Of a stretch of DNA of 64,000 bases, positions 16,683 to 48,224 are shown piece after piece. Origin of the DNA: Leucoraja erinacea. Lineage: Eukaryota. Position 1 is the stretch's first letter, and every line of letters starts with the position of its first letter. Under the pieces are notes generated by a model. That model worked only from the letters and a program-made list of their open reading frames with translations, had not been told where the DNA came from and ran no database searches. The translations under genes were made by a program, and so were the position numbers. The stretch is from NCBI RefSeq assembly GCF_028641065.1, contig NW_026575913.1, positions 124,001 to 188,000 on the forward strand, given 5' to 3'.

Positions 16683-16943
16683 TTGCTGTTTCATTGTGCC
16701 TCCGCATCCATTCATCCACTTGCCCTTTGATGATTCCATGGAAACCAGTTTCAGTGAACGTATCTGTTACCCAGTACTTCCGGTCAAATGCAGCCGCCAT
16801 CCATTTCTGTCTTGGGACTGCAATGTCCATGTTGTTGTCATAATACTGTATCTCACAACCGTCCAGAACACCCACAAAACTATATTCTTCTAGATGAGTA
16901 CTCCTGTGGTTCAGGGTGTAGTAATAGATCAGTGTGTGAGGCC
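16683..16943 (-). CDS. MHC class I-like heavy chain, exon 2 (alpha-1 domain)
   Basis: 261-nt phase-1/phase-1 exon with acceptor tgtctag| and donor |gttagt; translation GPHTLIYYYT...EEYSFVGVLDGCEIQYYDNN...AVPRQKWM...KYW...MRRHNETA matches class I alpha-1 motifs (H3, Y7, VG.xD, YYD, PR..W, YW, N86 sequon); no stops. Confidence 0.9.
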
Positions 16944-17304
16944 CTAGACACAAATAAAATACAATTATTGTCTAGTAATGGAAATATCTATGGATAGGAA
17001 AGGTTTGGAGGGAAATCGGCAAAACACCAATCAGATTTACATTGCACTAAACATGACACCCTTTACCCTCTATCTATCGATTGTGAACGGCTTCATTGCA
17101 ATGTAGTCTTTTCACTGACTGGATAGCACACAAGAAACATTTTCACTGCAAAACAGTACGTGTCACATTAATATTAAATTAAATTAAGCTAAAATGTAGG
17201 TAGGTGGGTCAAGAATATTTGGGGCATCTTGGCCAGCATAGATAAGCTGGGCTGAAGGGCCTGTTTATATGTTGTATATAATTCTAAATGTCAAGATTAC
17301 TTAG

Positions 17305-19950
17305 ATTATTTTAGTTTAGAGATACAGAGTGGAAACAGGCCCTTCGGCACAACGAGTCGGCACAAATCCAGCACATTAACACTATCCTACACACGAAGGA
17401 CAATTTACATTTATTTCAAGCCTATTAACCAACAAACCTGAACGTCGTTGGAGTGTGGGAGGAAACTGGACATCTTGGAGAAAACCCACACTGGTCATGG
17501 GGAGAACGTACAAACTCCCTACAAACAGCACCCTTAGTCAGGATCGGACCCGGGGCTCTGGCACTTTAAGGCAGCAACTCTATCACTGCCCCATCATGCC
17601 GCCCGCCCTAACCAATCAACATGTGGAAATAATATGATATTCAGATATTCCACCCACAAAGGTAAGTCATGGCAGTTATTTGGTTCACAGGCTACCATAC
17701 ATTACTCCGTGTGTCGTTAAAGAGTAACATTTAGGGGTAGGTATTGGAAATATCAGGAAGATAAAAAGAGATCAGGTACCAAAAGGGTTAGCATGGACTT
17801 GGTGGGTCAAAGGGCTTGTTTCTGTGCTGCACTCTCTATGCTGCACATTCAACTATTTGCATCACATCGTAACCTTCATAAGTCGTAACCTTCAGTTGAT
17901 TAGTCTAACAAGGATTCATCCACTGGTGTGTCAGACGGTGTGTATATATGGTTAACTGGTCGCCCGACGCGTCACAGAGTGCATCGTGTCGTCGGTTCCG
18001 GGGATCGCCACGAGGAGGCTTCTGTCATGATCCCTCCTATTTCAGTATAGGAGCAGGGAGGTTCTACTGCAGTTGTAAAGGGGGTTAGTGAGACCACACC
18101 TGGAGTATTGCGTACAGTTTTGGTCTCCTAATCTGAGGAAAGACATTCTTGCCATAAAGGGAGTACAGAGAAGGTTCACCAGACTGATTCCTGGGATGTC
18201 AGGACTTTCATATGAAGAAAGACTGGACAGACGCGGCTTGTACTCGCTAGAATTTGGAAGATTGAGGGGTATCTTAAAGAAACTTACAAAATTCTTAAGG
18301 GGTTGGACAGGCTAGATGCAGGAAGATTGTTCCTGGTGTTGGGGAAGTCCAGAACAAGAGGTCACAGTTTAAGGATAAGGGGGAAATCTGTTAGGACCGA
18401 GATGAGAAAAACATTTTTCACACAGAGAGTGGTGAATCTCTGGAATTCTCTGGCACAGAGGTAGTTGAGGCCAGTTCATTGGCTACATCTAAGAGGGAGT
18501 TAGATGTGGCCCTTGTGGCTAAAGGGATCAGGGGGTATGGAGAGAAGGCAGGTACAGGATGTTGAGTTGGATGATCAGCCATGATCATATTGAATGGCGG
18601 TGCAAGCTCGAAGGGCCGAATGGCCTACTCCTGAACCTATTTTCTATGTTTCTATGTTTCTAAACAAGGGTGATAGTCGAACAGAGGTAGAGTTACTGCC
18701 TTAGAGTTCAAAAGACAGCCAGGTTCAATCCTGACCATGGGTGCTGTCTGCATGCAGTCTTTACATTCTACCTGTGGGTTTTCCCTGGGTGCTCCAGTTT
18801 CCTCCCACACTCCAAAGCCGAGTTTGTAGTTTAATAGGCTTTGGTAAAGATTGTAAATTGTTGCTGGTCTATAGGATATTGCTACTGTACAGGTATCGCT
18901 GTTCAGCATGGTGGGTTGAAGAGCCTGTTCGCATGCTATATCTCTATGTCATCTTGAGCTGCAATATACAGTAGACTGTTGAAATCGGCTTGCACCATGG
19001 CAGTACATCAAGAGCAGACTCTAAAAATATCAATGTAACATTTAACTTCTGTTTTGATATGACCTCCTGGTGACTTTCTGATAGTTCACCACATCACCAC
19101 ATCCTCCTTTGTTCCCCTATCATCTCACTGGAGAGGCCCCACATTCACACTTCCTCAAATACCACAGATTTCCTGCTAGACTAGTTATTCAACTATTTAT
19201 TCCCACAGTCTGCTCTGTGAACATGCAGAAATTAACATCACAAACAATCAGGATTGAACAGCTCATTATCAACCTTAGACACAAAGTGCTAAAGTAACTC
19301 AGCGAGACCGGCAGCATCTCTGGAAAAAAAGGCTGGATGACACTTCGGGTCAAGACCCTACTTCAGTCTCAAGCAGGGTTAGTCTGAAGAAGGGTCCCAA
19401 CCCGACACATCAGACTGAAGAAGGTTTCCAACCTGAAGCTTCACCCAGCATCACCTATCCCTTTTCTACAGAGATGCTGTTTGACCCGTTGAGTTACTCC
19501 AGCATTTTGTGACTCTCTTTGGTACTAGCAGCATCTGCAATTTGTTGTTTCTACATCATTATCTATCTCTTTGAGAAAGCTTTCCCATAGAACTTGCCCC
19601 CTAACAAAATAAGATCACACAAAGTTACCAATTAGGGAGGCACGGTGCACAGCGGTAGAGTTGCTGCCTCCCAGTGTTTGCAGTGCCAGAGTCCCAGTTT
19701 CAATCCTGACTATGGGTGCTCTCAGTACGGAGTTAGTACGCTCTCCCCGTGACCTGCGTGGATTTTCGCCGAGATCTTTAATTTACTCCTACACTCCAAA
19801 GACGTGCAGGAATATAGGTTAATTCACTTGATGCATGTGTAAAATTGCCCCTCATGTGCATAGGACAGTGTTGGTGTGCGGGGTAGTCGCTGGTCGGTGC
19901 AGACTCGGTGGGCCGAAGGGCCTGTTTCCGTGCTGTATAGCTAAACTAAA
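17305..19950. mobile_element. V-SINE copies (~17305-17600 -, 18665-18945 +, 19634-19950 +) and a CR1-B 3' fragment (18045-18662 +)
   Basis: Same SINE head/core/tail as above; CR1-B RPHLEYCVQFWSP and (TTTCTATG)n tail. Confidence 0.85.
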
Positions 19951-20548
19951 ACAAATGAAAGAACCTATTTTACATATGTCACTTCCTTTGGTTCAGGCAG
20001 TGTTCTCTCTGGTGTAGACTGCCTGATAGTAATTTTCAGCTTATTCTGGTGAATAGAGATAGCAACATGAAAACCACAGAAATAATCTTAAAATAAACGG
20101 AATCATGCAGCATATGAACAGGCCCATTTGCCTAAGCTTGTTTATGCTGACCGAGATGTTTATCTACAATTACATGAATTACGCCCTTATCCCTCCCTGA
20201 CTTTCCTACCAAAAGTCCAAATGCTTTAAACATTGTGATTATCTCTGCCTCTATCATCTCCCCTGCAGCTCATTCCAGATAACTACTGTGGTGAGAAACA
20301 TCTGCTCAAATCCCCTTGACATTTCTCTCCCATCACCTTAAACCTTCAGTTCTAGTCTCCACTGTAATAGAAAGCTGAAAAAGAGAGGTGGGGCTGGGAC
20401 AAAGCCTGGCAAGTGATACAGGTGATAAGACCATAAAATGCTGGAGTAACTCAGTGGGTCAGGCAGCATCTCTGGAGAGAAGGAATGGGTGCCTTTTCAG
20501 GTCGAGATTCTTCTTCAGACTACTTGAGGATAAGGGAAACAAGAGGTA

Positions 20549-21348
20549 CAGGTGCACAACCTTTTTTATCCGGTGTTCCAGAAACCGAAAAGCTCCGAAA
20601 ACCGGCCATTTTTTCCAGATGTCGTCTGCGCACCAAAGCTCGCGTTTGGCGCCAAACTTGACCTAAAACGACCCACGGTCAACCCAGGTCTGTACTACTG
20701 TAGCGGCTGCCTCCTCCCTGGAGACCGGGAGACGCTTAAACATCTGTAAATCATTGCTTAAATGTTAGTCAGTTAGTTTGGAGGGCTTTTATGTGAAGGG
20801 GGGTGAAGGGGTAAACTTTAAATAACCGGCAGCGGTGGGCGGCGCTGGTTGTAGCTCCGCTACCCCTGGCTGCGAGGCGCTCCAAATCCAGCGCGGCCCG
20901 CGGCCAGACGCCCCAGCTCCGCGAATGTCGGGTGCAGCGGCAAGCTCCGAAGCAAGAAGCCAGGGGTAGAGTTGCCGGGGTCGGAGCCGACGTTTCCCGC
21001 GGCGGCCGGACGGAGAGCTCCGCGGCTCCAAAACAGATTTTGCCCGCTCCCCGCTGGTATCCCAGCGCTGCGAAGTCCGGCCGCGGGCGGCGCTGGATTT
21101 GGAGCGCCTCGCAGCCAGGGGTAGAGTTGCCGGGGTCGGAGCTACAACCGGCGCCGCCCGCGGCCGGACGGAGGCTCCGCGAGGTTGGGAGTCGCCGACC
21201 AGGACTAAGAATTAAAAGACTCCACCACCACCACATAAAATCCCTCCAAACTAACTAACTAACATTTGCAATGATTCTCCCGGTCAACGCGCTACCTACC
21301 TAATCTACAAGAGGTCCCAAGGCTTTCGGATAAAAGGTTGTGCACCTG
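20549..21348. mobile_element. Tc1/mariner-superfamily (pogo/Tigger-like) MITE, 800 bp
   Basis: TA|CAGGTGCACAACCTTTT...AAAAGGTTGTGCACCTG|TA; TA target duplication; internal inverted repeats. Confidence 0.9.
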
Positions 21349-21879
21349 TATAGACAATGATGTTGAGAGATAAAGAAGAATGAATGAAAGATATGCAAAA
21401 ATGTAACAATAATAAGGGAAACAGGCCATTGTAAGCTATTTGTTGGGTGGAAGCAAGAAGCTGGTCCGACTTGAGAACAGATTTTGATAAGTAGATGGGT
21501 GGAGTAAGTGGCAACGGCAAGAGGTGAAAAGGTTACAAAGGGTCTGAAGAAGGGTCTCGACCAGAAACGTCCCATTCCTTCTATCCAGAGATACTGCCTG
21601 TATCTCTGGATAGAAGGAGTTACTCCAGCTTTTTGTGTCTATCTTTGGTTTAAACCGCATCTGCAGTTCCTCCTTACACAAGAGACAAATGGGGTCAGGT
21701 AAGGAGTTAGATGTGGCCCTTGTGGCTAAGGGGATCAGGGGGTATGGAGAGAAGGCAGGTACGGGATACTGAGTTGGATGATCAGCCATGATCATATTGA
21801 ATGGCGGTGCAGGCTCGAAGGGCCGAATGGCCTACTCCTGCACCTAATTTCTATGTTTCTATGTTTCTATGAGATAAGA

Positions 21880-21920
21880 GGAGTGAAATCTAAAGCCAGA
21901 TGAAGGCCATAGGTGGGAAC

Positions 21921-21961
<41 letters not shown>

Positions 21962-22400
21962 GGAGAAAGATTGGGGATAAAAGTGCAATGAGAGAATTGA
22001 GGAAGGTAGATGCATAAACAAAGGGGAAAGGAACTGAGTGATTGGGAGGGTGGGTGTTAGTGGGAGAAATAGGCGCACATCAGGGTGGACAGGAAAGAAT
22101 GGGTGTTGGGGGGGGGGTGGGGGGGGACGGGGAGGAAGGGGAGGGTATTGCCTCAAGTTGAACAATTCAATGTCCATAACATTGGACTGTAAGCTATCCA
22201 AGTAGAACATGAAGTGCTGTTCCTCCAGATTGCATGTGTCCTCACTCTGGCAATGGAAGAAGCTAAAGACAGAAAGGTGGGTCTGGTACTGGGAAGGGGG
22301 GGGGGGGGGGGGGGGGTTGAAAGGGTTAGAGTTGGGAGATCCAGCAGGTGTTGGCAGAAAGAATGCAAGTGCTTTATAAAATGGTGGTCCCGTCTATGCT
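21880..22400 (-). mobile_element. Degenerate Penelope-like 3' fragment with poly-G tracts
   Basis: Reverse complement resembles the GIY-YIG C-terminus (LEEQH..F.L.SL....M.IE) and downstream flank at 51050-51400. Confidence 0.7.
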
Positions 22401-23079
22401 GATGCAAAAGAGGCTACTTAGGGACACAGAAAGTGGTAGGTGCTTGGAACACACTCTCAGGAGAGGTGGATGCAGATACTACAGCACAATATATGTGGAT
22501 ATGCAGACACACACATGAACAGGCAGGAAATAGAGGGCTATAGACCACATGGTAACGTGGAATTAATTTAAATAGGCATCACGGTCAGCCTAGATCTCAC
22601 GGGCGGAAAATACTGTATGAAAAAGGGTCTCGACCAGAAACATCACCCATTCCTTCCCTCCAGAGAAGCTGCCTGTCCCACCGAGTTACTCCAGCTTTAT
22701 GTGTCTATCTACTGATTTAACCAGTTTCAGCAGTTCCTTCCTGTACATCCTGCCTGTGCAGCATTGTTCTGTGTTTACACATAGAGTGTAAATAAAACCT
22801 GCCATCCAGTGTGCCATTTAAATCAATTATGAGTGATGTATATTTTTATTCCATGTCATCCTACAAAATACCCCACAAATATACCACTCAGTGGCAGCAT
22901 TCAGTGGATGGTGGCTGAGGCAAGGCAGCTATCAACTAGTTCATAGATTACATTTGTTTTCTTTTGACATTGTCAAGTTACTGAACGTTTTCCACAGGAA
23001 GTACTTTTTATGGCCCATTCTAGTGAGAATATTGATGAATGAAAAACAAGAAAACTGTTCTTTTGGACAGCACTATTAT

Positions 23080-23400
23080 GGGGGTCACGGTGCAGTAGAG
23101 GTAGAGCTACTGCCTTACAGCGCCAACAACCCGGGTTCGATCCTGACTACAGGTGCTGTCTGTACGGAGTTTGTACGTTCTCCCCGTGACCTGCATGGGT
23201 TTTCTCCAAGACCTTTGATTTCCTCCCACACTCCAAAGACGTACAGGTTTGTAGGTTAATGGGCTTTGTGTAAATATTAGATTGTGTGTCGTGTGTGTGC
23301 GTGCGTGCCTGCGTGTGGTAGCGATAGTGCGGTAATCGCTGGCCGGTGCGGACTCGGTGGGCTGAAGGGCCTGTTTCTGCTCTGTATCTCTGAACTAAAC
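23080..23400 (+). mobile_element. V-SINE (HE1-like), near full length
   Basis: GGTTCGATCC B-box, V core, tail CTGTATCTCTGAACTAAACTA. Confidence 0.9.
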
Positions 23401-24998
23401 TAGTACCAAAACAAATAAAGAGGAAAATAAAGTCATCGAACACAGAAACTTGTGTCTGTGCGAGTGGTCAAGCACTAATCCCACACTAAACTGTTCCAAA
23501 TGTTGCAGGAGTCCAGAACCAGGGGTCAGTTTAAAACTAAGGGGTAGGTTATTGAGAACTGAGATCAGGAAGAACTTTTTCAACCAGATAGTTGTGAATC
23601 TGTGGTATTCTCTGCCACAGAGGGCAGTGGAGACCAATTCATGGGATGTTTTCAAGACAGTTAGATTTAGCTCTTAGGGCTATTGGAATCAAATCATATG
23701 GGGGGAAAAGCAGGAACGAGGTAATGATTTTGGATGATCAGCCATGATCATATTGCATAATATGATTCGAAGGACCGAATGGCCTCTTCCTGCACCTAAA
23801 GTATTTTCATTGTTTCTTTGTAAATCACATTCCCATTAACTTCCCTCCCTTCTCAATTTTCCCACCACCCACATTCACTCAGGGAAGATGACCTTCCAGT
23901 CAAATAACCTGATCCTACCTCACAAATGTTTATAAATGCTTTAAATGTAACCTTGTTAAATGTTTTCTGAACTGGTGATTAATCTATATCTCCCATTTCC
24001 CCTCCCTTCTCATAAATGTACTGTACACTGCACAATGACAATAGAGATCTGATGTACTGTACATACTTCAGCCGGCATAACTTCACTTTTACACACTCTT
24101 CTCTCTGATACATGCACAGCAGGTGAAGAGCACAATTGCTCGAGCCGTGAGGAATGTATTGCTGGAGTCGACTATCAATATTAATCAGCAAAAGACCCAT
24201 GTTCTAGGGTATGATTACATTACAAAAACTACCAAATAACCTTTCCGTTTTCAGTAGAAAATAGGATAAAATAATGGCGTGGTGCTATAAACTTGACACA
24301 GAAATAAGACGATGGAAATAATCCAACAGCGTCTGTGGAGATAAATAGAGTTGCAACATTTTACATTCCAAATTAAATGATGAAGGTCCAGAATGTGAAT
24401 TCAGATTTCCTCTCCTTAAGCTTAACATTTTCCAAGGTTTCTGGGTATTTAGTTTGATTTAGAGATACAGTGCAGAAACAGCCCGCCATTTTCTTGCTGA
24501 CCAGCGATCCCTGCAAACTATCACATTTCTATGCACACACTTGAGACAATTTAGAATTTTACTAAGGCAATTGGTATGTCATTGGCGTGTGGGAGGAAAC
24601 CGGAGTGCCCGGAGGAAACCTGCACCTGTCATGGGATGGGAAGTACATACATAGAAACATAGAAATTAGGTGCAGGAGTAGGCCATTCGGCCCTTCGAGC
24701 CTGCACCGCCATTCAATATGATCATGGCTGATCATCGAACTCAGTATCCCGTACCTGCCTTCTCTCCATACCCCCTGATCCCCTTAGCCACAAGGGCCAC
24801 ATCTAACTCCCTCTTAAATATAGCCATACGCCATACAGTACAAAAACGTATGGCGTTTGTACATATAGTACAAACGCCATACAGACAAAAACCGTAGTCA
24901 GGATTGAACCCGGGCCCCTTGCGCTGTAAAGCAGCAACTCTACCGCTGCACCACAGTGCCAAACCATATTTTTAGCATTTCCTGCCGAATCCTAAACT

Positions 24999-26447
24999 GT
25001 AAGGTGTATTATAGACCGCTAAATGGGGATCGAGAATTGGAAGAGCAAATATGTAAGGAGATAGCAGATATTAGTAGTAATCACAAGGTAGTGATTGTGG
25101 GAGATTTCAACTTTACACACATAGACTGGGAAACACATTCTGTAAATGGGCTGGATGGTTTGGAGTTTGTAAAATGTATGCAGGATAGTTTTTTGCAGCA
25201 ATACATAGAGGTACCTACTAGAGGAGGGGCAGTGCTGGACCTCCTGTTAGGAAATGAGACGGGCCAGGTGGCGGAGGTATGCGTTGGGGAGCACTTCGGG
25301 TCCAGTGATCACAATACCATTAGTTTCAATATAATTATGGAGAGGGTCAGAACTGGACCTAGGGTTGAGATTTTTGATTGGAGAAAGGCTAACTTTGATG
25401 CGATGCGAAATGATTTAAAAGGAGTGAACTGGGACATTTTGTTTTATGGGAAGGATGTGGAAGAGAAATGGAGGACATTTAAAGGGGAAATTTTAAGAGT
25501 ACAGAATCTTTATGTTCCTGTTCGGTTGAAAGGAAACAGTAAAAATTGGAAAGAGCCCTGGTTTTCAAGGGAAATTGGACACCTTGTTCATAAAAAGAGG
25601 GAGATCTACAATAATTATAGGCAGCATGGAGTAAATGAGGTGCTTGAGGAGTATAGAGAATGTTAAAAGAATCTTAAGAAAGAAATTAGAAAAGCTAAAA
25701 GACACGAGGTTGCTTTGGCAAGTAAGGTGAAAGTACATCCAAAGGGTTTCTACAGCTATATTAATAGCAAAAGGATAATGAGGGATAAAATTGGTCCATT
25801 GGAGAGACATCTGGATAAACAGGGTCTGATTAGGAACAGTCAACATGGATTTGTGCCTGGAAGGTCATGTTTGACTAATTTTCATGAATTTTTTGAAGAT
25901 GTTACTAGGGAAATTGACGAGGGTAAAGCAGTGGATGTTGTCTATATGGACTTTAGTAAGGCCTTTGACAAGGTTCCTCATGGAAGGTTGGTTAAGAAGG
26001 TTCAACTGTTGGGTATAAATGCAGGAGTAGCAAGATGGATTCAACAGTGGCTGAATGGGAGACGCCAGAGGGTAATGGTGGATGGCTGTTTGTCGGGTTG
26101 GAGGCAGGTGACTAGTGGGGTGCCTCAGGGATCTGTGTTGGGTCCTTTGTTGTTTGTCATGTACATCAATGATCTGGATGAAGGTGTGGTAAATTGGATT
26201 AGTAAGTATGCAGATGATACCAAGATAGGGGGTGTTGTGGATAATGAAGAGGATTTCCAAAGTCTACAGAGTGATTTAGGCCATTTGGATGAATGGGCTG
26301 AAAGATGGCAGATGGAGTTTAATGCTGATAAATGTGAGGTGCTACACCTTGGCAGGACAAATCAAAATAGGACGTACATGGTAAATGGTCGGGAATTGAA
26401 GAATGCAGTTGAACAGAGGGATCTGGGAATAACCGTGCATAGTTCCT
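24999..26447 (+). mobile_element. CR1-A LINE fragment (EN to RT, internal deletion at ~25805)
   Basis: YYRP, VGDFN, SDH, then QHGF...YADDTK. Confidence 0.92.
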
Positions 26448-26814
26448 TTGTCCTGCCCCCCCCCCCACCCCACTTCTAGCTCTATTTACCCTCACAATCA
26501 GTCTGAAGAATGGTCCCAGCCCGAATCATCACCATCCCACGTTCTCAAGTAATGCTGCCCGTCCCACTGAGTTATTCCAACACTGTGTTTTTTTTTGTTA
26601 ACCAGCTTCTTCAGTTCCTCGTTTCTTCTTTCTCCTCCTTCCTGGTCCTGAAGGGTCACTGGCCTGAAGCATTAGCTCTGCTTTCCTTCCCACATATGAC
26701 CCACTGCATATTGCCAGTGTTTTCTGTATTTTACTAATGTAAATTTTAACATTACTATTCCTGCATGCATTATTGAACTGCTATCCTTTCCAACAATGTT
26801 CAACATAGCTGTGT

Positions 26815-28665
26815 TTACAGATACAGCACGGAGACAGGCCCTTTGGCCCACCGGGTCCGTGCCGACCAGTGATCCCCGTACATTAACATCCACTAGGGAC
26901 TATTTTCACATTTACCAAGCCAATTAACCTCTAAACCTACACGTCTTTAGAATGTGGGAGGAAACCGAAGATTTCGGAGAAAATCCACGCAGGTCACAGG
27001 GAGAATATACGAACTCCGTACAGACATGGGGATCGAACCCGGGTCTCTGGCACTGCACTCACTGTCTCGTGCTGCACCACCTTTGTGACTGCCCTTTGTT
27101 CAAGGTACGAACATTTCAGCATGCAATTCTAATGCAGAAATATCACATAAAATACCAAACAACAGTGTTATTCAAACAAGTAGATTATATACAGACATGT
27201 TGGAATCTTCAGCAATGAAATACTGGAGGAACTCAGCGAGTCAGGCAGCATCTGTGGATGGATAGGACAGGTAACGTTTTCAGTCAGAACCTGTCTTTAG
27301 TAGTTTAAATAGGTTGAATCCAGCCACTTGCAATACATCAGTAATTTTATTGTTCTTTAGGTTAGTTTAGAGTTACAGCATGGAAATGGGCCCTTTGGCC
27401 CACTGAGCCCATGCTGACCATTGATCTCCCATTCACTCAGTTAATCCACTTTCTCGTCCACTCCTTCCACTCGGGGCAATTTACATCGGCAAATTAACTC
27501 ACAAACCTGCATGCCTTTGGGGTGTGGGATGAAACCGGAGCACCTGGAGGAAGCCCACGTGGTCACAGCGAAAACGTGCAAACTCCGCATAGACAGACCC
27601 GAGGTCAGGATTGAACCTGGGTCTCTGGCACTACGAGGCAGCAGCTCTCTACCATTGTACCACTGTGCCGTATTTCACAAAATCCATTAACCAGCTCAAC
27701 ACAGGTTAATGGCATTGGCGGCCATGGATGTCTGTGTTCCATGGAAAATAAAGTTGGGAGGAACAGAACTAATGAATGATGGAAAGAATGAATTGTCAAT
27801 GAATTGAATACTGTATTGTCACATGTACCTAGGGGACCTGGGCTTAGTGAAATGCTTTGTTTTCCATACAACCTCAGTCTATCCTTGACAGGACTTTGCT
27901 GGCTTCACCTCACCCTAAATATTATTCCCTTATCATGTATCTCTACACTGTAAATGCATTGAATTTAACCATGTATTGTCTTTCTACTGACTGGTTAGCA
28001 AGCGACAAAAAGCTTTTCACTGTACCTCGGTACACATGACAATAAACTAAACTGAACCTAGGTAGTACAAAAGTGTTGCCATGTGTTTGCGCAGACAAAG
28101 CTACAAAAGTTACAAAAGTACCAAGCAGTCCTTTCCACTGCCTGTTGCCGCACGTGGCAGCAGACCCCACCCCCACAGCTCCCCCTTTGTTCTCGTCCCC
28201 TCCAATGGGACAGCCTCCCTGTGCTGAATGCTCTACGTCTACAATGTTCTAAGTATAAGATTAGATTAAGCAATGCTCACTGTTGGACTTTGTACCTGCA
28301 AACCTTTATTACTTTGTTGTTCTCTTTGAATAAAACTTTATTGAGTGTTCTTGTCTGTACAAACTAAAATGTGTTGGTTTTTCCGTGACGTTTGAATTCG
28401 GGTATCATGCTCACCAATCTTATTTAACAGATGCAGCATGGAAACAGGCCTTTCTGCCCACTGAGTCTGTGCTCACCATCAATCACCCAAACACTAGTTC
28501 TATGGTTTCCCTGTTTCACATCCTACAAACTCAGGACAATTTACAGAGGCCAATAAACCTACAAACCCACACGTCTTTGGAATGTGGGAGGAAACCGGAA
28601 CATCCACAGGAAACCCGAGCAGTCACAGGAAGATCGTACAAACTCCATACAAACAGAACCCATTG
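26815..28665 (-). mobile_element. V-SINE copies (~26815-27085, 27360-27670, 28425-28665)
   Basis: Same SINE consensus on the minus strand. Confidence 0.8.
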
Positions 28666-29794
28666 TTTGGATCCTTCCTGTATTTGTGTAGGAAGGAACT
28701 GCAGATGCTGGTTTACACCAAAGATAGAGACAAAATGCTGGAGTAACGCAGTGGAACAGGCAGCATCCCTGGATAGAAGGATTTAGCATTTTAAAGATCA
28801 ATAATTTGAGGGCCCCCTTCACAATGATATGTGCACATATATAGTCACAGAGACACACAAACAGAACCTTCAGCCGACAGAGTCCATTCTGACCACAAAG
28901 TACTAATTCCATACCATAACTTCCCACCATTGAATGGATCTACAGGAGGTGCTGCCTCAGAATGACAGCTAATATCATCAGAGACCCACACCACCCTGGC
29001 CATACTCTCAGGGCCGGCCACCCTGGACCAGGAATTCACCCGGAAGATCTGACCCATCCATCATGGATGGAGTTCTTGCTCGCTGTGGACCGAGGATGGA
29101 GGACCCACCTGGAAGGCCCAGCTCGCCCGGCCAGAGTTGAACGAGTCAGTTGGATGGCTTATAGGCAGTCTGGCTGCGGGAGGGAATGCACTGCCTCAAC
29201 GGTGGAGTGGGAGCTGGAGGCCCAGCAGCAGCCAGGGGCTTGGCTGTTCCAGGCGCCGCTCCAAGAGGCCAGGAACATATACCAGTTGAGCCCTGCAGCA
29301 GTAGAGGACACCACAGCTTCACATGGCCAGTCCAAACCTGCAACAATGCCAGGACAATGGGCCTCATGGTCAGGCCTAGAACCCTTACTTACAACTTGAG
29401 GGCCGTGAAAATGGCACCAAAAACTGGCGACACTGTATACTGTCTCAGCGTACTACTGCTATACACTTGTACTGTATCTGACATGCTTATCTAAGACGTA
29501 TCTAAGGGCTTATATACAGTGATACCTTTACTAAACTGTATACAAAAATGAATTTCACTGTACCTCGGTACATGCCACAAATAAAATACCATTAAAACAA
29601 TGAACTACCTTTGAGGTTAGAAAGCCTGAGAACTGTTAGCTCCAGGTTTAAGAGCAGCTTTTTTCTCACGGGCAGCAGGCTTTTAAACACTGCACAACAC
29701 TAATCACAACCTTACCTCAACAACTCTGATCTATGATGGACTTTATTTTGGTTGCAGTTTTGTATTTCCACTGTTATGGTCTGGTTACCTAGTA

Positions 29795-31536
29795 TATAAC
29801 CATATAACAATTACAGCACGGAAACAGGCCATCTCAACCATTCTAGTCCGCGCCGAACACTTATTCTCCTCTAGTCCCATCTACCTGCACTCAGACCATA
29901 ACCCTCCATTCCCTTCGCATCTATATGCCTATCCAATTTATTCTTAAATGATACCAACGAACCTGCCTCCACCACTTCCACTGGGAGCTCATTCCACACA
30001 GCTACCACTCTCCGAGTAAAGAAGTTCCCCCTCATGTTACCCCTAAACTTCTGTCCTTTAATTCTCAAATCATGTCCTCTTGTTTGAATCTTCCCTACTG
30101 TCAATGGAAAAAGCTAATCCACATCAATTCTGTCTATCCCTCTCATCATTTTAAAGACCTCTATCAAGTCCCCCCTTAACCTTCTGCGCTCCAAAAAATA
30201 AAGACCTAACTTGTTCAACCTTTCTCTGTAACTTAGGTGCTGAAAATAAGGCAACATTCTAGTAAATCTAATATTAAATTATTGTGTCATTGATTGTTTT
30301 ATATTTAATATGTGTATAAGAATGTCATTGTTCCATTGCCAGTACAGATGACAATTAAACTCTTGCTCTTGTCCAACCCATTCTTATTCTCTGTAAATTA
30401 CCATCATCTCTCTCCAGATTCTATCACTTACCTACAAATGACAGTCAACTTACATGGTACAAACAAGGAACTACAAATGTTGGTTCACAAAGAAATAGAC
30501 GCAAAGTTCTGGAGCACCTTGGTGGGTCAGGTAGCATCCCTGGAGAACGGATATGTGTCGATGGATAGATGTTTTGGGTCAAGACCCCTTCTTCACTCTG
30601 TGGAAGGGTGTTGACCCTAAATGTCATCTCTCCATGTTCTCCGGAGATGCTGCCTGACCAGCTGAGTTACTCCAGCACTTAAGAGTTAGACAAAAAATGC
30701 TGGAGTAACTCAGTGGGACAGGCAGCATCTCTGGAGAGAAGGTCTCAAACTGAAATGCCACCTATTCCCTTTCTACAGAGTCGCTGTCTGACCCGCTGAA
30801 TTACTCAAGCTTTTTGTGTCTATCTTTGGTTTAAACCAGCATCTGCAGTTGTTGGGAGGAACCTATTCCTCAACCTGGAAGTCATGGTTTTCAAGCACCT
30901 ATACTTTCTTCCCCATGGTGGGAGGTATTAAAAGTGTGGCCAGGGGGATGATGTTGGCTGCCTTTTTGAGTCAGGGTGTCGTGTGGATCCCTTCGATGGT
31001 GGTGAGGTCAGTATAGCATCCTGATTATTCACAAATCTAAGTACTTCATCTGAAGAGCAGGCCTAAGTTGTAGAATTGCTCTCTAAATATCCCTTCCTAA
31101 CCATATAACAATTACAGCACGGAAACAGGCCATCTCGGCCCTACAAGTCCGTGCCAAACAACTTTTTTTCCCCTTAGTCCCACCTGCCTGCACTCATACC
31201 ATAACCCTCCATTCCCTTCTCATCCATATGCCTATCCAATTTATTTTTAAATAATACCAATGAACCTGCCTCCACCACTTCCACTGGAAGCTCATTCCAC
31301 ACCGCTACCACTCTCTGAGTAAAGAAGTTCCCCCTCATATTACCCCTAAACCTCTGTCCCTTAATTCTGAAGTCATGTCCTCTTGTTTGAATCTTCCCTA
31401 TTCTCAAGGGGAAAAGCATGTCCACATCAACTCTGTCTATCCCTCTCATCATTTTAAAGACCTCTATCAAGTCCCCCGTTAACCTTCTGCGCTGCAGGGA
31501 ATAAAGACCTAACTTATTCAACCTATCTCTGTAACT
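29795..31536 (-). mobile_element. Two short 5'-truncated CR1-A 3' ends (29795-30268, 31099-31536)
   Basis: TRGH...NFFT.RVVAVWNELP and tail. Confidence 0.9.
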
Positions 31537-32631
31537 ATTATACTTCCTCTTATACTTCCTTTAAGATGCACCTTAACTGTTCATTTTGCTAATTGTCATG
31601 TAATGCCATTATACTGCTCGAAGTAAAATGTTACAGAATATATTCTTACGAATCTCATTGAAGCATTTTCCTACATTGAAACTGCTATAAATATGTTATT
31701 CGTTATATCTATTCCTGTTTCCCCTTTCACTAAACTAGATTATTACCATCAAACGAGAATGTCATTGTTTTGTTTGGCTCTGGAGATGTGTGCTGGAATG
31801 TGATCATTAAAATCTTCCCGTATATTGAACCCTGAACTACGCTACACTCAACTATGAATAATCAACAAAATAAATACAAAGTGTTGGAGTAACTCAGCAG
31901 ATCAGGCAGCGTCGCTGGTGAGAATGGATAGGTAATGTGTCGAATCGGCCCCTGTAGACCGATGGACTGTCTTTGGTTAAACTAAGCATTCGAGGTGTTT
32001 TTGCACAAATATTGGGATTATCAATTTACTGAATTTTTAGCATGTTATCTATTTGTATTGTCTTACAGGTCTGCTAAGCTGCTGCAAGAATGTCATTATT
32101 TGGTAGTCAGCACATATGACTATTGAACATTCTATACTCTTCTGGACTCTCTTTTGGAGTGAGAACAAACCTAACATAAGCAAAATGGTGCCATTCATCC
32201 TTTGTCCCCAATCTCTGATATTCTATAAGATCCTCTAGCAGACCACCATTTTTCCAAACAATCCCACAATTCCTTTTGTATCCAAGCATCTTCCTATCCG
32301 TGCCTCAAGCATCTGATTGACTGAATGCCCGCACCCTTCTTGGACAGAGAATTAGAAAGACTAATTACCCTCTAGGTGAAAAGGTTTCATCTCTTTACTG
32401 CACTGAATTCAATGATTCAATGATATTTTATTGTCACATGCACCTAGGTACAGTGAAATGCTCTGTTCCGCATACAACTCGGTAAAATCATATAGCAGAC
32501 CTAACCGCGGCAATACACAAGTGTCACCATGTTTTGCTGCCATAAGAATGTCTGAACCCTTATTTCTAAACTGTGAATTTTGGTTCCAGACACATCAGTC
32601 TGGGGAGAAATAAAAAGATCATCCCTCATGA

Positions 32632-35600
32632 CCCTTATAACATATAACATTATAACCATAGGTTACACCTACATTTCTGTACCTTAATTCTGAAGTCATG
32701 TCCTCTTGTTTGAATCTTCCCTATTCTAAAAGGGAAAAGCTTGACCACATCAACTCTGTCAATCCCTCTCATCATTTTAAAGACCTCTATCAAGTCCCCC
32801 CTTAACCTTCTGCGCTCCAGAGAATAAAGACCTAACTTATTCAACCTTTCTCTGTAACTTAGTTGCTGAAACCCAGGCAACATTCTAGTAAATCTCCTCT
32901 GTACTCTCTCTATTTTGTTGACATCCTTCCAATAATTGGGCGACCAAAATTGTACACCGTACTCCAGATTTGGTCTCACCAATGCCTTGTACAATTTTAA
33001 CATTACATCCCAGCTTCTATACTCAATGCTCCGATTTATAAAGGCTAGCATAACAAAAGCTTTCTTTACCACCCTATCTATATGAGATTCCACCTTCAAG
33101 GAACTATGCACGGTTATTCCAGATCCCTCTGTTCAACTGCATTCTTCAATTCCCTACCATTTACCATGTACGTCCTATTTTGATTTGTCCTGCCAAGGTG
33201 TAGCACCTCACATTTATCAGCATTAAACTCCATCTGCCATCTTTCAGCCCATTCTTCCAAATGGCCTAAACCACTCTATAGACTTTGGAAATCCTCTTCA
33301 TTATCCACAACACCCGCTATCTTGGTATCATCTGCATACTTACTAATCCAATTTACCACACCTTCATCCAGATCATTGATGTACATGACAAACAACAAAG
33401 GGTCCAACAGATCCCTGAGGCACCTCACTATTCACCTGCCTCCAACCCGACAAACAGCCATCCACCATTACCCTCTGGCGTCTCTCATTCAGCCACTGTT
33501 GAATCCATCTTGCTATTCCTGCATTTATACCCAACAGTTGAACCTTCTTAACCAACCTTCCATGAGGAACCTTGTTAAAGGCCTTACTAAAGTCCATATA
33601 GACAACATCCACTGCTTTACCCTCGTCAATTTCCCTAGTAACCTCTTCAAAAAATTCAAGAAGATTAGTCAAACATGACCTTCCAGGCACAAATCCATGT
33701 TGACTGTTCCTAATCAGATCCTGTCTATCCAGATGCTTATATATAGTATATTTTCCATTAATTTGCCCACCACTGAAGTCAAACTAACAGGTCTATAATT
33801 GCTAGGTTTACTCTTAGTACCCTTTTTAAACAATGGAACAACATGCGCAGTACGCCAATCCTCGGGGACTATTCCCGTTTCTAATGACATTTGAAATATT
33901 TCTGTCATAGCCCCGGCTATTTCTACACTAACTTCCCTCAATGTGCTAGGGAATATCCTGTCAGGACCTGGAGACTTGTCCACTTTTATATTTTTCAAAA
34001 ATGTCAGTACTTCTTTTACTTTGAAACTCATAGTATCCATGGAACTCTACTAGTTTTCCTTACCTCACATAATTTAATATCCTTCTCCTTGGTGAATACC
34101 GAAGAAAATAAATTGATCAACAGCTCCCCCATCTCTTTTGGCTCTGCAGATAGCTGTCCACTCTGTCTCTCCAATGGACCAATTTTATCCCTCGTTATCC
34201 TTTTGCTATTAATATAGCTGTAGAAACCCTTTGGATTTACTTTCACCTTACTTGCCAAAGCAACCTCATGTCTTCTTTTAGCTTTTCTAATTTCTTTCTT
34301 AAGATTCTTTTTACATTCCTTATACTCCTCAAGCACCTCATTTACTTCATGCTGCCCATATTTATTGTAGATCTCCCTCTTTTTCCCAAACAAGATGTCC
34401 AATTTCCCTTGAAAACCAGGGCTCTTTCCAATTTTTACTGTTTCCTTTCAACCGAACAGGAACATAAAGATTCTGTACTCTTAAAATTTCCCTTTTAAAT
34501 GTCCTCCATTTCTCTTCTACATCCTTCCCATAGAACAAAATGTCCCAGTTCACTTCTTTTTAAATCATTTCGCATCTCATCAAAATTAGCCTTTCTCGAA
34601 TCAAATATCTCAACCTTAGGTCCAGTTCTGATCCTATCCATAATTATATTGAAACTAATGGTATTGTGATCACTGGACCCCAAGTGCTCCCCAACGCATA
34701 CCTCCGCCACCTATCCCGTCTCATTTCCTAACAGGACGTCCAGCAATGTCCCTCCTCTAGTAGGTACCTCTATGTATTGCTGCAAAAAACTATCCTGCAC
34801 ACATTTTACAAACTCCAACCCATCCTGCCCATTTACAGAATGTGTTTCCAAGTCTATGTGTGGAAGGTTGAAATCTCCCACAATCACTATCTTGTGCTTA
34901 CTACTAATATCTGCAATCTCCTTACATATTTGCTCTTCCAATTCTCGTTCCCCATTTGGGGGTCTATAATACCCCCCTATAAGTGTTGCTACACCTTTCC
35001 CACTTCTCAATTCCACCCAAATAGCCTCCCTAGATGAGCCCTCCAATCTATCCTGCCAAAGCACTGCTGTAATATCTTCCCTGACTAGCAATGCAACACC
35101 TCCACCTCTTGCCCCTCCAATTCTATCACACCTGAAGCAACGAAATCCTGGAATATTTAGTTTCCAATCACAGCCCTCCTGCAACCACGTTTCACTGATC
35201 GCCACAACATCATACTTCCAGGTGTCAATCCAGGCTCTAAGTTCATCCACCTTTCTTACAATGCTCCTAGCATTAAAATATGCACATTTAAGAAACCCCC
35301 GTCTCTTATTCTCTGTTTATTTCCTTTTTTTTCTTTCTCCTCTTGTGTCCGAGTGCTTCCCTTTTCTGCTTCCTGCCTCCCATTCTGTCTACTAGCTTTC
35401 GCTATTTGAGTCCCTCGCCCCAACCATTCTAGTTTAAAGTCTCCCCAGTAACCTTTGCAAATTTCCCCGCTAGGATATTGGTCCCCCTCGGGTTCAAGTG
35501 CAACCCATCCTTTCTGTACAGGTCCCACCTTCCCCAAAAGAAGTCCGAATGATCCAGAAACTTGAATCCCTGCCCTCTGCACCAGTCTTTCAGCCACGCA

Positions 35601-36395
35601 TTTATCCTCCACCTCGCTCCATTCCTACTCTCACTGTCGCGTGGCACAGGCAGTAATCCTGATATGGTTACCTTTTTGGTCCTTTTTCTTAACTCTCCTC
35701 CCAACTCCCTAAATCCTCCCTTCAGGACCTCTTCCCTTTTTTTACCTATGTCATTGGTACCTATATGTACCACGACCTCAGGCTCCTCTCCCTCTGATTT
35801 AAGGATATCTTGGATGCGTTGAGACACGTCCGAGACCTTGGCACCAGGGAGGCAGACCACCATCCTGGTCTCCCGACTGCGTCCACAGAATCGCCTATCT
35901 GACCCCCTAACAATAGAGTCCCCAATTACCATTGCCCTCTTTTTTTCCCTACCTTTTGGAGCAAATGGGCCTGTCTCTGTGCTGGAGGCCCGTCCGCTGT
36001 CGCTACCCCCGGGTAGGCTGTCACCCCCATCCGTACTCAAACAGGAGTACTTATTTGCGAGGTGTACTGACATTGGAGTACTCACTCGTTCCTGCCTCTG
36101 CCCTTTGCCCTTCCTTAGCGTGACCCACATGTCTCTCTCCCGTGGTTTTGGAGTGACCACCTCCCTATAATTCCCCTCTATGACCTCCTCACTCTCCCTG
36201 ATCAGACAGAGGTCATCGAGCTGCTGCTCCAGGATCCTAATACGGTCCCTTAGGAGCCCCATCTCGCTGCACCTGGTGCAGATGTGGACGTCTGGAGGGC
36301 CATCCGACACCATGACCTCCCACATCTGACATCCAGAACAGTACACTGCTCTGACTGTCATTCTCCCGCCTTACCCTGGATCTGATACAAGTACA
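32632..36395 (-). mobile_element. Near full-length CR1-A LINE; ORF1 35429-36361 open, ORF2 frameshifted, 3' UTR deleted
   Basis: ORF1 esterase (GDSIV, GTND, DGLH), EN and RT ORFs in order; tail abuts the truncated ORF2 end. Confidence 0.93.
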
Positions 36396-36530
36396 ATACA
36401 ATAGAAACTGCTGGGAGAAAAATTTCCTAACAGGAGTTCCAGCACTGCCCCTCCTCTAGTAGGTACCTCAATGTATTGCTGCAAAAAAACTATCCTGCAC
36501 ACATTTTAGAAACTCCAAACCAAACCATCC

Positions 36531-38298
36531 ATTGGAACAAGGATATGGCGGACCAATTGAATAACTACTTTGGTTCCGTCTTCACTAAGGAAGACATAAA
36601 TAATTTGCCGGAAATAGCAGGGGACCGCGGGTCAAAGGAGTTGGATGAATTGAGTGAAATCCAGGTTAGCCGGGAAGTGGTGTTGGGTAAATTGAATGGA
36701 TTAAAGGCCGATAAATCCCCAGGGCCAGATAGGCTGCATACCAGAGTACTTAAGGAAGTAGCTCCAGAAATAGTGGATGCATTAGTAATAATCTTTCAAA
36801 ACTCTTTAGATTCTGGAGTAGTTCCTGAAGATTGGCGGGTAGCAAACGTAACCCCACTTTTTAAGAAGGGAGGGAGAGAGAAAATGGGGAATTACAGACC
36901 AGTTAGTCTAACATCGGTAGTGGGGAAACTGCTAGAGTCAGTTATTAAAGATGGGATAGCAGCACATTTGGAAAGTGGTGAAATCATTGGACAAAGTCAG
37001 CATGGATTTACGAAAGGTAAATCATGTCTGACGAATCTTATAGAATTTTTCGAGGATGTAACTAGTAGCGTGGATAGGGGAGAACCAGTGGATGTGGTGT
37101 ATCTGGACTTCCAGAAGGCTTTCGACAAGATCCCACATAAAAAATTAGTATACAAACTTAAAGCACAAGGCATTGGGGGTTCAGTATTGATGTGGATAGA
37201 GAACTGGCTGGCAAACAGGAAGCAAAGAGTAGGAGTAAACGGGTCCTTTTCACAATGGCAGGCAGTGACTAGTGGGGTACCCCAAGGCTCAGTACTGGGA
37301 CCCCAGCTATTTACAATATATATTAATGATCTGGATGAAGGAATTGAAGGCAATATCTCCAAGTTTGCGGATGACACTAAGCTGGGGGGCAGTGTTAGCT
37401 GTGAGGAGGATGCTAGGAGACTGCAGGGTGACTTGGATAGGCTGGGTGAGTGGGCAAATGTTTGGCAGATGCAGTATAATGTGGATAAATGTGAGGTTAT
37501 CCATTTTGGTGGCAAAAACAGGAAAGCAGACTATTATCTAAATGGTGGCCGATTGGGAAAGGGGGAGATGCAGCGAGACCTGGGTGTCATGGTACACCAG
37601 TCATTGAAGGTAGGCATGCAGGTGCAGCAGGCAGTAAAGAAAGCGAATGGTATGTTAGCTTTCATTGCAAAAGGATTTGAGTATAGGAGCAGAGAGGTTC
37701 TACTGCAGTTGTACAGGGTCTTGGTGAGACCACACCTGGAGTATTGCGTACAGTTTTGGTCTCCAAATCTGAGGAAGGACATTATTGCCATAGAGGGAGT
37801 GCAGAGACGGTTCACCAGACTGATTCCTGGGATGTCAGGACTGTCTTATGAAGAAAGACTGGATAGACTGGTTTATACTCTCTAGAATTTAGAAGATTGA
37901 GAGGGGATCTTATAGAAACTTACAAAATTCTTAAGGGGTTGGACAGGCTAGATGCAGGAAGATTGTTCCCGATGTTAGGGAGTCCAGGACAAGGGGTCAC
38001 AGCTTAAGGATAAAGGGGAAATCCTTTAAAACCGAGATGAGAAGAACTTTTTTCACACAGAGAGTGGTGAATCTCTGGAATTCTCTGCCACAGAGGGTAG
38101 TTGAGGCCACTTCATTGGCTATATTTAAGAGGGAGTTAGATGTGGCCCTTGTGGCTAAGGGGATCAGAGGGTATGGAGAGAAGGCAGGTACGGGATACTG
38201 AGTTGGATGATCAGCCATGATCATATTGAATGGCGGTGCAGGCTCGAAGGGCCGAATGGCCTACTCCTGCACCTATGTTTCTATGTTTCTATGTTTCT
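36531..38298 (+). mobile_element. 5'-truncated CR1-B LINE with a long open RT frame, inserted into a CR1-A EN fragment (36423-38345)
   Basis: Long open RT frame with FADDTK; (TTTCTATG)n tail; ATCCA at both junctions. Confidence 0.93.
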
Positions 38299-38339
38299 AT
38301 CCAGCCCATTTACAGAATGTGTTTCACAGTCTATGTGTG

Positions 38340-38500
38340 GAAATTGGTGGTGAAGTTGATGGAGTCAGTGAGTTTTGCATGGGTGCAGGAAGTAGCACCA
38401 ATGCAGTCGTCAATGTAGCGGTGGTAGAGTTCAGGGATCGGGCCAGTGTACGCCTGGAACAGTAACTGTTCGACATTCCCTACAAAGAGGCAAGCACAGC
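38340..38500 (-). mobile_element. Penelope-like RT fragment
   Basis: ACLFVGNVEQ...YHRYIDDCIGATSCT matches the 50140-50300 translation. Confidence 0.85.
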
Positions 38501-38829
38501 CCTTTCCCGCCTCTCCCACATATTCCCATTCTTACAATAAGAACTTGAAATCAAAGATGTTTTTGCTTCAAACCGCGTCGCTCCCGTTTGTTTTACACGA
38601 GTTAAAATGCAGTTTAAACCAATACCTGCAGTTCCTTCTCTCACAAAGGAAACGGTGCATGGTACAAATCAAAGCAGAAATTCCAGTCTGTATTGTACCG
38701 AAACAGGGGAGATTGAACCGTTTTAACGTCTACATGAACCTCAGACTGAATGTGTATTGCGCGCTTTTTTTAAACTAAATAGAGATAAAGCCAAGCCAGT
38801 AACGAATAAAATGAGAATCATTAACTTAC

Positions 38830-38881
38830 CTGCAAGAGCCCCTTGTACGTGGAAGAAACTCAGCAAGATGAACAGAATCAT
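38830..38881 (-). CDS. MHC class I-like heavy chain, exon 1 (signal peptide MILFILLSFFHVQGALA-G)
   Basis: Hydrophobic leader ending A-L-A; phase-1 donor G|GTAAGT fits the phase-1 acceptor of the alpha-1 exon to give ...ALA-G-PHTLIY; an in-frame upstream ATG lies at 38902. Confidence 0.78.
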
Positions 38882-39277
38882 TTCGCGTACAACCTCTCGC
38901 ATCAACAGCAGCAACTGAGCCAAACTTCACCAACAACAAAGCAGGATAATCTCATCATACAATCAGAATAAAAATACTACGGTCGTCACCAGTTGTCGAG
39001 CGGTGTCATTGGACCAGCAGGAAACCATTGACTGCAATGGAGACACGAGGAGGTGCTGAGGTGTAACTCAGGTCGCAAGTCCGGAGAGCATAGATGGTGA
39101 CGATAGACACAAAGCGCTGGAATAACTCAACGGGTCGAGCAGCATCTTTGGAGAAAAAGGATAGGTGACTATTGTCAATCTGAAGTAGGGTCCCAATCTG
39201 AAATAGCGCCTGTCAATGTCTTCCAGAGATGTTGCCCGACCTGCTGAGTCACTACAACACTTTGTTTTTTCGCACTA

Positions 39278-47281: not shown

Positions 47282-47800
47282 GAGGAACATAATGAATAAA
47301 ATGGGTACAACTGGGGTTAAAATGGTTTCGATCACCGAAAGTGCTGCCCATATCGGTGTGGTGTAGACGTCTGATGTTATCCAACAGTACCAAGCCACTT
47401 TGTCAATATTGTATAACGGTAACTAGGAAAATATACACTGGAATATTTTGAATAATACTTAAGATAAATGTTACTGCTATCACCACAGATGCAGTTTTCT
47501 CATTGCAATACTTTGCTCGTAAACTCTGATTACAAATAGTGATAAATCGATCGAAGGTGAAAGTCACCGTTAGCCAGACAGAGCAATCAATGGTATTACA
47601 ATTAAACAAAATACGCAGCCTACAAATGTGATATAGGTTGAGGAATGAAAACGGAAAATAGGCACCTGACATCTCAGAGAGAATTACCTCGAAGATCAGA
47701 ACCATTAAATCAGCCACGGCCATGGATACCAGATAGCGAGTGATACATTTGGAGAGACCACAATTTCTTCGGGAGAGAATAACGATTGCCAACAGGTTAG
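47276..47800 (-). pseudogene. GPR139-like class A GPCR, exon 2 (TM1 end to TM5), frameshifted at ~47415-47435 and truncated after TM5
   Basis: Acceptor tcttcttcag|CT AAC; ANLLAIVILSR..CGLSKCITRYLVSMAVADLMV, FTFDRFITIC, YCNEKTA; after a +1 shift PLYNIDKVAWYC...ILTPVVPILFIMFLNA. Confidence 0.88.
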
Positions 47801-48224
47801 CTGAAGAAGAGACGAAATTAAAATCGTCGTCTTTTATTGTTCCAGACAATGTTAGTTTAACACTTCTTCGAACGCAAATGAGTGGATTATTTGATTCTGT
47901 ATCTCGCATCGAGATGATAGGCATATATGTGTCCGGTAAGAGGAATGCCCACCCTCATATTCCTCGGTATCGGTCGCAGATTAATTTCAGGTTCGCAGAT
48001 GAATGCAGATTTAGCATCCAAATAACGCCCATTCCCGACCCCATTTGCTTTATAAGGATTACAATTTTGATTACCATTTTCCCTAAAAACAAATGGAAAG
48101 CAGTAACCTTTTCCTGATAGCTCCATCGTCGGAGATTCGATACTTATTACTGGAGTTGGTTATGTGGAGTTTGTACCTTTACCACGTGGTCAAGTTGGTA
48201 TGCCTGCGTGAATGATTGATTGGT

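What the first reader, a model, noticed from the sequence alone, without database searches (positions are those of the whole stretch)
16683..38881. Divergent MHC class I-like gene hidden in TE-rich DNA, with a ~21.9-kb first intron
Seen: a 52-nt leader exon and a 261-nt alpha-1 exon with compatible phase-1 splice sites and no disablements. By manual alignment to classical class I, alpha-1 appears to keep Y7, Y59-W60, R84 and the N86 glycan sequon (NET). It is otherwise divergent (LNHRSTHLEEYSF; DTFTETGFHGIIKGQVDEW) and has a lone Cys (DGCEI). Established: cartilaginous fish carry classical UAA and non-classical lineages (UBA, UCA, UDA, UEA). Inference: a non-classical gene, possibly of an unassigned lineage. 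Pairing this leader with this alpha-1 exon is inferred from strand, phase and the lack of alternatives.
Basis: partly seen in the sequence, partly recalled or inferred. Interest (0 to 1): 0.7.

Follow-up and report, generated by a model that had tools for sequence, protein, structure and literature searches.

The report
Skate UGA, a CD1-like MHC gene
This is an intact, transcribed, already catalogued skate immune gene of the non-classical MHC class I lineage UGA, which likely presents fats rather than peptides to T cells and carries a tail signal predicted to route it through endosomes, as in our CD1 proteins.

Summary
The two exons begin an intact six-exon gene spanning 64 kb, four exons lying left of the window. 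The protein is identical to RefSeq little-skate LOC129716032 and to a short-contig assembly. Its alpha-1 differs by one residue from 'Lerinacea_UGA' in a 2023 supplement, and the best structural match is PDB 9CH4, 'shark nonclassical MHC class I, UGA'. A review reports UGA as a CD1-like lipid binder, citing personal communication. My checks agree: four peptide anchors are replaced, the groove is more hydrophobic than classical class I, and the tail RRDYQNIQ closely matches CD1b/CD1d sorting motifs, with YxxΦ in 11 of 14 genera. The long intron is repeat-filled and ordinary. RefSeq MHC-GPCR fusion isoforms got no support from the few reads laid. Side leads: a probable inverted second copy, and a conserved UGA sister lineage that I could not match to any published label.

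The parts
38830..38902 (-). Exon 1, signal peptide. Coding from the ATG at 38881 (52 nt) or the upstream in-frame ATG at 38902 (73 nt); phase-1 GT donor
   Evidence: same leader in P0016-P0018 and homologous leaders in orthologues
16944..38829 (-). Intron 1, 21,886 nt. At least 62% has another hit on the same 250-kb scaffold; 5 open stretches of 200 aa or more, LINE-like by recalled motifs (24908-26477, 34713-37883)
16683..16943 (-). Exon 2, alpha-1 domain of UGA (87 codons, phase 1/1). The rest of the gene lies left of the window on G000:C732: alpha-2 122324-122049, alpha-3 113500-113234, TM 103733-103626, cytoplasmic tail with stop 98846-98806
   Evidence: all five introns GT-AG; the joined CDS equals P0018 and P0012 from residue 8
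27198..27251 (-). Alternative first exon used only by RefSeq isoform X2 (P0009); not a hydrophobic leader; probably a minor or spurious start
   Evidence: for place; status inferred
38960..39012 (-). Promoter-like stretch: CCAAT, then TGACG, then CTGATTG 22 nt further on, resembling an MHC X2-Y module (consensus recalled, not tested)
   Evidence: sequence

Best explanation
This is the little-skate gene of the elasmobranch non-classical MHC class I lineage UGA, a transcribed six-exon membrane protein that likely presents lipids rather than peptides and is predicted to recycle through endosomes by a tyrosine tail motif, like CD1. Shown here: exon structure, open frame, spliced transcripts, lineage, class I fold of the model, loss of four peptide anchors, a relatively hydrophobic groove, and a YxxΦ tail. 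Reported second-hand: lipid binding by shark UFA/UGA. Inferred: pairing with beta-2-microglobulin, AP-2/AP-3 binding of the tail, lipid exchange in endosomes, recognition by innate-like T cells.
For: Identity: 100% over 86 aa to Leucoraja erinacea LOC129716032. By eye, alpha-1 differs by 1 residue from 'Lerinacea_UGA_NODE_9696', alpha-3 is identical and alpha-2 differs by 3. 9CH4_A is the top hit by sequence (E 1.3e-114, next 3.5e-48) and by fold (Z 30.6, rmsd 1.4 over 268; next Z 27.5; title names UGA). The UGA clade has SH-aLRT 100 in two quick trees (80 and 63 rows). Splicing: P0016-P0018 are full 334-aa products on contigs of 1,435-3,455 nt against a 64-kb gene; RNA reads join alpha-3/TM and TM/tail. 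Anchors: Y123A, T143F, Y159L and W167Y are replaced. Mean Kyte-Doolittle over 37 recalled groove positions is +0.27 here and +0.41 to +0.86 in 6 other UGA rows, against -0.15 to -0.44 in 4 classical-type rows. Tail RRDYQNIQ versus human CD1b RRRSYQNIP and pig CD1d RRRVYQNIQ (PMC5002277 Table 2); the CD1b tail binds AP-2 and AP-3 (PMC2715062). YxxΦ is present in at least one model from 11 of 14 genera (6 of 6 batoid, 5 of 8 shark) and in 0 of 20 other chondrichthyan class I rows where a tail was detected (8 of 12 and 12 of 18 rows had one). Six exons with tail and 3'UTR combined is the CD1/MR1 layout. Lipid binding: PMC12562908.
Against: The lipid claim rests on a personal communication in a review; I saw neither the primary paper nor the ligand in 9CH4. 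Y7, Y59, R84, K146, W147 and Y171 are kept, which could still hold peptide ends. This copy has the least hydrophobic groove of the 7 UGA rows; a UBA-like row (+0.21) and an MR1-like row (+0.12) score almost as high. No CD1 chain is among the best 60 of 460 sequence matches or the rows shown by either fold search. Three shark genera and 2 of 3 Pristis paralogues show no YxxΦ in the models seen. No listed read spanned the leader/alpha-1 junction; alpha-1 depth was 0 in 2 of 4 runs and about 1-3 in the other two.
Confidence: 0.8

Rival explanations
1. UGA binds short hydrophobic peptides, lipopeptides or small metabolites, as chicken YF1 or MR1 do, rather than CD1-type two-tailed lipids.
For: Y7/Y59/Y171 and K146/W147 retained. 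After 9CH4 the nearest structures are classical class I, MR1 and YF1, the last with N-acylated amino acids by entry title. Six charged groove positions remain.
Against: Review reports lipids comparable to those of CD1d from crystal and mass-spectrometry work. T143F, Y159L, L114, L116, F156 and W81 are hydrophobic in 7 of 7 UGA rows. CD1-type tail.
Confidence: 0.14
2. The locus makes a functional MHC-GPCR fusion protein (RefSeq isoforms X1-X4 splice the TM exon into a downstream GPR139-like receptor).
For: P0008 carries MHC_I, C1-set and 7tm_1 domains; its exons map with AG/GT ends on C732.
Against: All 12 listed records crossing the TM exon's 3' end (1 contig, 7 reads, 4 reads) continue into the normal tail exon; one further X12 read has no listed end, and ends under 3 reads are not listed. 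The entry site is a weak acceptor upstream of the receptor's own ATG. One MHC TM helix would put the receptor's N-terminus in the cytoplasm (inference). None of the other-species UGA models fetched shows such a fusion.
Confidence: 0.03
3. The gene is an unassigned new lineage, or an orphan or pseudogenic exon.
For: Only 22-33% identity to UAA-, UBA- and UDA-like rows in alpha-1 and alpha-2; the lineage has no formal description in the papers I could open.
Against: Published label UGA on a near-identical skate sequence; PDB title; complete CDS equal to an assembled transcript product.
Confidence: 0.02

Closest known systems
Elasmobranch MHC-Ib lineage UGA (Lerinacea_UGA and Gcirratum_UGA, PMC10751288 suppl. 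file 10; PDB 9CH4)
   Same: Near-identical to the published skate sequence; 57-58% identical to 9CH4 with no gaps over 268 residues, rmsd 1.4.
   Different: This copy has Tyr at 167 where the 6 other UGA rows tabulated have Leu, and Phe24. The batoid tail is longer and ends in Cys; shark tails stop right after YNx(V/I).
CD1b / CD1d
   Same: Six-exon layout, YxxΦ tail nearly letter for letter, hydrophobic groove, reported lipid binding.
   Different: Keeps Y7, Y59, K146, W147 and Y171; closer in sequence and fold ranking to classical class I and MR1 than to CD1; sits among MHC-Ib genes. Orthology is untested, and PMC10751288 calls CD1-UFA orthology hard to assess.
Classical shark class Ia UAA (PDB 6LUP; Triakis P0060)
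   Same: Fold, N86 glycan site, Y7/Y59/R84/K146/W147/Y171.
   Different: 29-31% identity per domain; T143, Y159 and W167 replaced; at most 8 differences in 268 aa among 5 skate sequences; UAA-type tails lack YxxΦ.
UFA (CD1-like shark lineage)
   Same: Hydrophobic groove; a UFA-like row joined UGA at SH-aLRT 93 in one tree.
   Different: 17% identity in alpha-2; the join fell to 62 in the second tree and the row is a long branch.

Membership tests
MHC class I heavy chain | Leader, alpha-1, alpha-2, alpha-3 (C1-set), TM and tail on phase-1 exons | tested here: met
MHC class I heavy chain | Association with beta-2-microglobulin | not tested
   inferred from family only
UGA lineage | Sequence identity with published UGA-labelled sequences | tested here: met
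   1, 3 and 0 differences in alpha-1, -2 and -3 from Lerinacea_UGA, compared by eye
UGA lineage | One clade with shark and ray orthologues, apart from UAA/UBA/UDA/UEA-like rows | tested here: met
   SH-aLRT 100 in quick trees; other lineages labelled by short motifs and by eye; the careful tree did not finish
UGA lineage | Single or low copy, MHC-linked | tested here: inconclusive
   2 copies on unplaced scaffolds beside other class I exons and GPR139-like genes, a mix also seen in the sawfish MHC table; Rhinoraja has 10 near-identical proteins
Classical class Ia (UAA) | Full set of peptide-terminus anchors | tested here: not met
   T143F, Y159L, W167Y, 123A
Classical class Ia (UAA) | High allelic polymorphism in the groove | tested here: inconclusive
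   0-8 differences among only 5 sequences, two of them possibly paralogues
CD1 family | YxxΦ endosomal sorting motif in the tail | tested here: met
CD1 family | Deep hydrophobic A'/F' pockets holding lipid | tested here: inconclusive
   Hydropathy is raised but pocket volume and ligand were not measurable; reported
CD1 family | Phylogenetic orthology with CD1 | not tested
   No row known to be CD1 was in my trees; CD1 is not among the top rows

The most novel reading that the evidence does not exclude
UGA, UFA and a third, apparently unnamed lineage (P0043 on C1104, with orthologues in 11 further shark and ray genera and the most hydrophobic groove of 18 rows scored) form an ancient clade of lipid-presenting class I molecules. 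UGA alone kept a CD1b/d-type YQNI sorting tail from a common ancestor with CD1, while the tail-less sister samples early compartments like CD1a. That would place the CD1a/CD1b division of labour, and CD1 itself, at the root of jawed vertebrates.
Probability: 0.2. Interest if true: 0.65.

Novelty: already known. Interest (0 to 1): 0.25.

Why it matters
The gene itself is known, so the finding as stated is ordinary. It sits on a live question: whether CD1-type lipid presentation is as old as classical MHC. The conserved CD1-like tail gives a cheap test (tail mutant, adaptor binding), and the sister lineage gives a natural tail-less comparison. I did not find either point in the papers I could open, but the paper behind 9CH4 and two Almeida papers were not available and may cover both.

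Tried and rejected
Pfam scan of the alpha-1 exon alone: no family. Run search: no RNA holder listed on record. First read lay: swamped by repeats, and it showed no leader junction. The careful tree did not finish, so quick trees were used. Exon ends were off by 1-2 bases and were corrected. PMC8454915 and PMC7002201 were not held. Searches for a primary UGA paper returned only the review. CD1 absent from the listed fold matches: not taken as exclusion. A search for a second TM exon found only this one, so the second copy's TM exon is missing from the assembly or from the search. Tandem repeats in intron 1: 3 trivial arrays. Promoter literature search seen as a listing only. Chimaera 'UGA' (P0139) did not join elasmobranch UGA in either tree, so no claim is made on holocephalans. 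Lone Cys31: not invariant (Tyr in P0005, Ser in P0253), left unexplained. No complex prediction was run, since a beta-2m pass would follow from likeness to solved structures.

Full report
Observation. On the minus strand the leader (38881-38830, 52 nt from ATG) and alpha-1 exon (16943-16683, 261 nt) have canonical phase-1 splice sites and join in frame. The quoted residues are in place. An in-frame ATG lies 7 codons upstream at 38902. RefSeq uses it, and five shark orthologues begin at the same offset, four with Val at the second site, so the start codon is open.

The whole gene. The window is G000:C732:124001-188000. I fetched the rest of the scaffold and mapped alpha-2 (122324-122049), alpha-3 (113500-113234), TM (103733-103626) and tail (98846-98806). 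All five introns are GT-AG, of 21,886, 18,358, 8,548, 9,500 and 4,779 nt. The joined frame gives 334 aa, identical to P0018 and to RefSeq isoform X6 from residue 8. P0016-P0018 lie on assembled contigs of 1,435-3,455 nt, which a 64-kb gene can give only after splicing. They include the leader/alpha-1 junction. Raw reads join alpha-3 to TM and TM to tail. My lay over alpha-1 was dominated by repeats: depth on the exon was 0 in two runs and about 1-3 in two, and no leader junction was listed. The long intron is ordinary. At least 62% of it is repeated on the same scaffold, the second copy's introns 1 and 2 are about 18 and 26 kb, and white-shark MHC-Ib genes listed span up to 99 kb.

Identity. 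The protein is Leucoraja erinacea LOC129716032. In supplementary file 10 of PMC10751288 (I read passages of the main text, supplement parts 1, 97 and 98, and two supplement searches), 'Lerinacea_UGA_NODE_9696' differs from it by 1, 3 and 0 residues in alpha-1, -2 and -3, compared by eye. The 9CH4 chain reads as 'Gcirratum_UGA' of the same file, also by eye. An AlphaFold model from 80 sequences (pLDDT 87.8) matches 9CH4 best, titled 'shark nonclassical MHC CLASS I, UGA', released March 2026 (Foldseek E 2.9e-37; Z 30.6, rmsd 1.4, 268 aligned). Two quick trees give UGA as a clade at SH-aLRT 100. Relatives were found in 14 shark and ray genera. The chimaera sequence labelled UGA did not join the clade.

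How it likely works. Y7, Y59, R84, K146, W147 and Y171 are kept; 123 is Ala, 143 Phe, 159 Leu and 167 Tyr. Over 37 recalled groove positions the mean hydropathy is +0.27, with other UGA rows at +0.41 to +0.86. Four classical-type rows score -0.15 to -0.44, two UDA-like rows -0.39 and -0.70, a UBA-like row +0.21 and an MR1-like row +0.12. The contrast is clear for the lineage and modest for this copy. The tail reads RRDYQNIQ; Table 2 of PMC5002277 (passages read) gives human CD1b RRRSYQNIP and pig CD1d RRRVYQNIQ and says YXXZ motifs drive recycling to endosomes. PMC2715062 (passages) says the CD1b tail binds AP-2 and AP-3. YxxΦ occurs in 19 of 22 UGA rows (not independent: five batoid genera) and in 6 of 11 further rows. 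By genus that is 6 of 6 batoids and 5 of 8 sharks; two of the three misses are represented by second isoforms only. It was absent from 20 other chondrichthyan tails detected among 30 rows. PMC12562908 (passages) reports, from a personal communication, that UFA and UGA bind lipids comparable to those of CD1d. I therefore infer loading with self lipid in the ER, surface display with beta-2m, adaptor-driven recycling, lipid exchange and T-cell recognition. None of these steps was tested here. Against full CD1 membership: peptide anchors are partly kept and CD1 is not among the top matches by sequence or fold. It works like CD1; being a CD1 orthologue is untested.

Rivals. A YF1- or MR1-like ligand remains possible (0.14). 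The RefSeq MHC-GPCR fusion isoforms are real models, but all 12 listed records at the TM exon's 3' end go to the normal tail exon. One further read is unlisted, and depth is low. The topology would also be inverted, so I treat them as read-through (0.03).

Surroundings. C732 opens with an inverted near-copy of the gene's 3' end, and C1104 carries the matching 5' part of a second UGA copy; paralogue versus haplotig is unresolved. C1104 also carries P0043, a member of a conserved lineage sister to UGA (SH-aLRT 91) that I could not match to the 26 labelled rows of the published query file. It may be named in work I could not open. The scan's earlier notes held no look-alike of this protein. Of 16 notes fitting a genome look-up, 8 were shown, and one concerns the GPR139-like family.

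Verdict. The CD1-type tail and the sister lineage are the parts worth following.

Noticed in passing
G000:C1104:112159-102889 (L031-L032), P0043: A second class I gene upstream of the other UGA copy, 36-41% identical to UGA per domain. It has full-length relatives at 54-72% in 11 other shark and ray genera, forms a clade at SH-aLRT 100, sister to UGA at 91, has groove hydropathy +1.08 and no YxxΦ in 8 detected tails. By eye it matches none of the 26 labelled class I rows in the PMC10751288 query files.
   Followed up: partly
G000:C732:3-49815 versus 98975-63320; C1104:1-70278: The scaffold begins with a 97.5-98.7% identical inverted copy of the UGA last exon and the GPR139-like genes. C1104 holds a second UGA copy (8 of 268 aa differ) that ends just where that copy would need its TM exon. 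Probably two tail-to-tail paralogues split over two scaffolds, or a haplotig. Transcript and published sequences are mosaics of the two.
   Followed up: partly
G000:C732:70132-64299 (L006): RefSeq isoforms X1-X5 splice the UGA TM exon into a GPR139-like receptor exon; probably read-through.
   Followed up: yes
G000:C732:214989-214729 (L016): A lone classical- or UBA-like alpha-1 exon; no matching alpha-2 or alpha-3 was found on the scaffold.
   Followed up: no
window 47279-47813, minus strand: A GPR139-like receptor piece, interrupted and partial; several more lie on the scaffold. GPR139-like genes also lie among MHC-Ib genes in the sawfish table.
   Followed up: no
P0003, P0020-P0028: Rhinoraja longicauda has 10 near-identical UGA proteins on one 41-Mb sequence (7 compared differ by 1-12 aa); Pristis and Pristiophorus have 3 each. 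The review calls UGA single- or low-copy.
   Followed up: partly
window 38960-39012: X2-Y-like promoter boxes upstream of the leader (consensus recalled).
   Followed up: no
L003:9694: A G>A variant in the TM exon (Ala to Val) in 5 of 6 reads of X12 and 1 of 6 of X10: an allele or the second copy.
   Followed up: no
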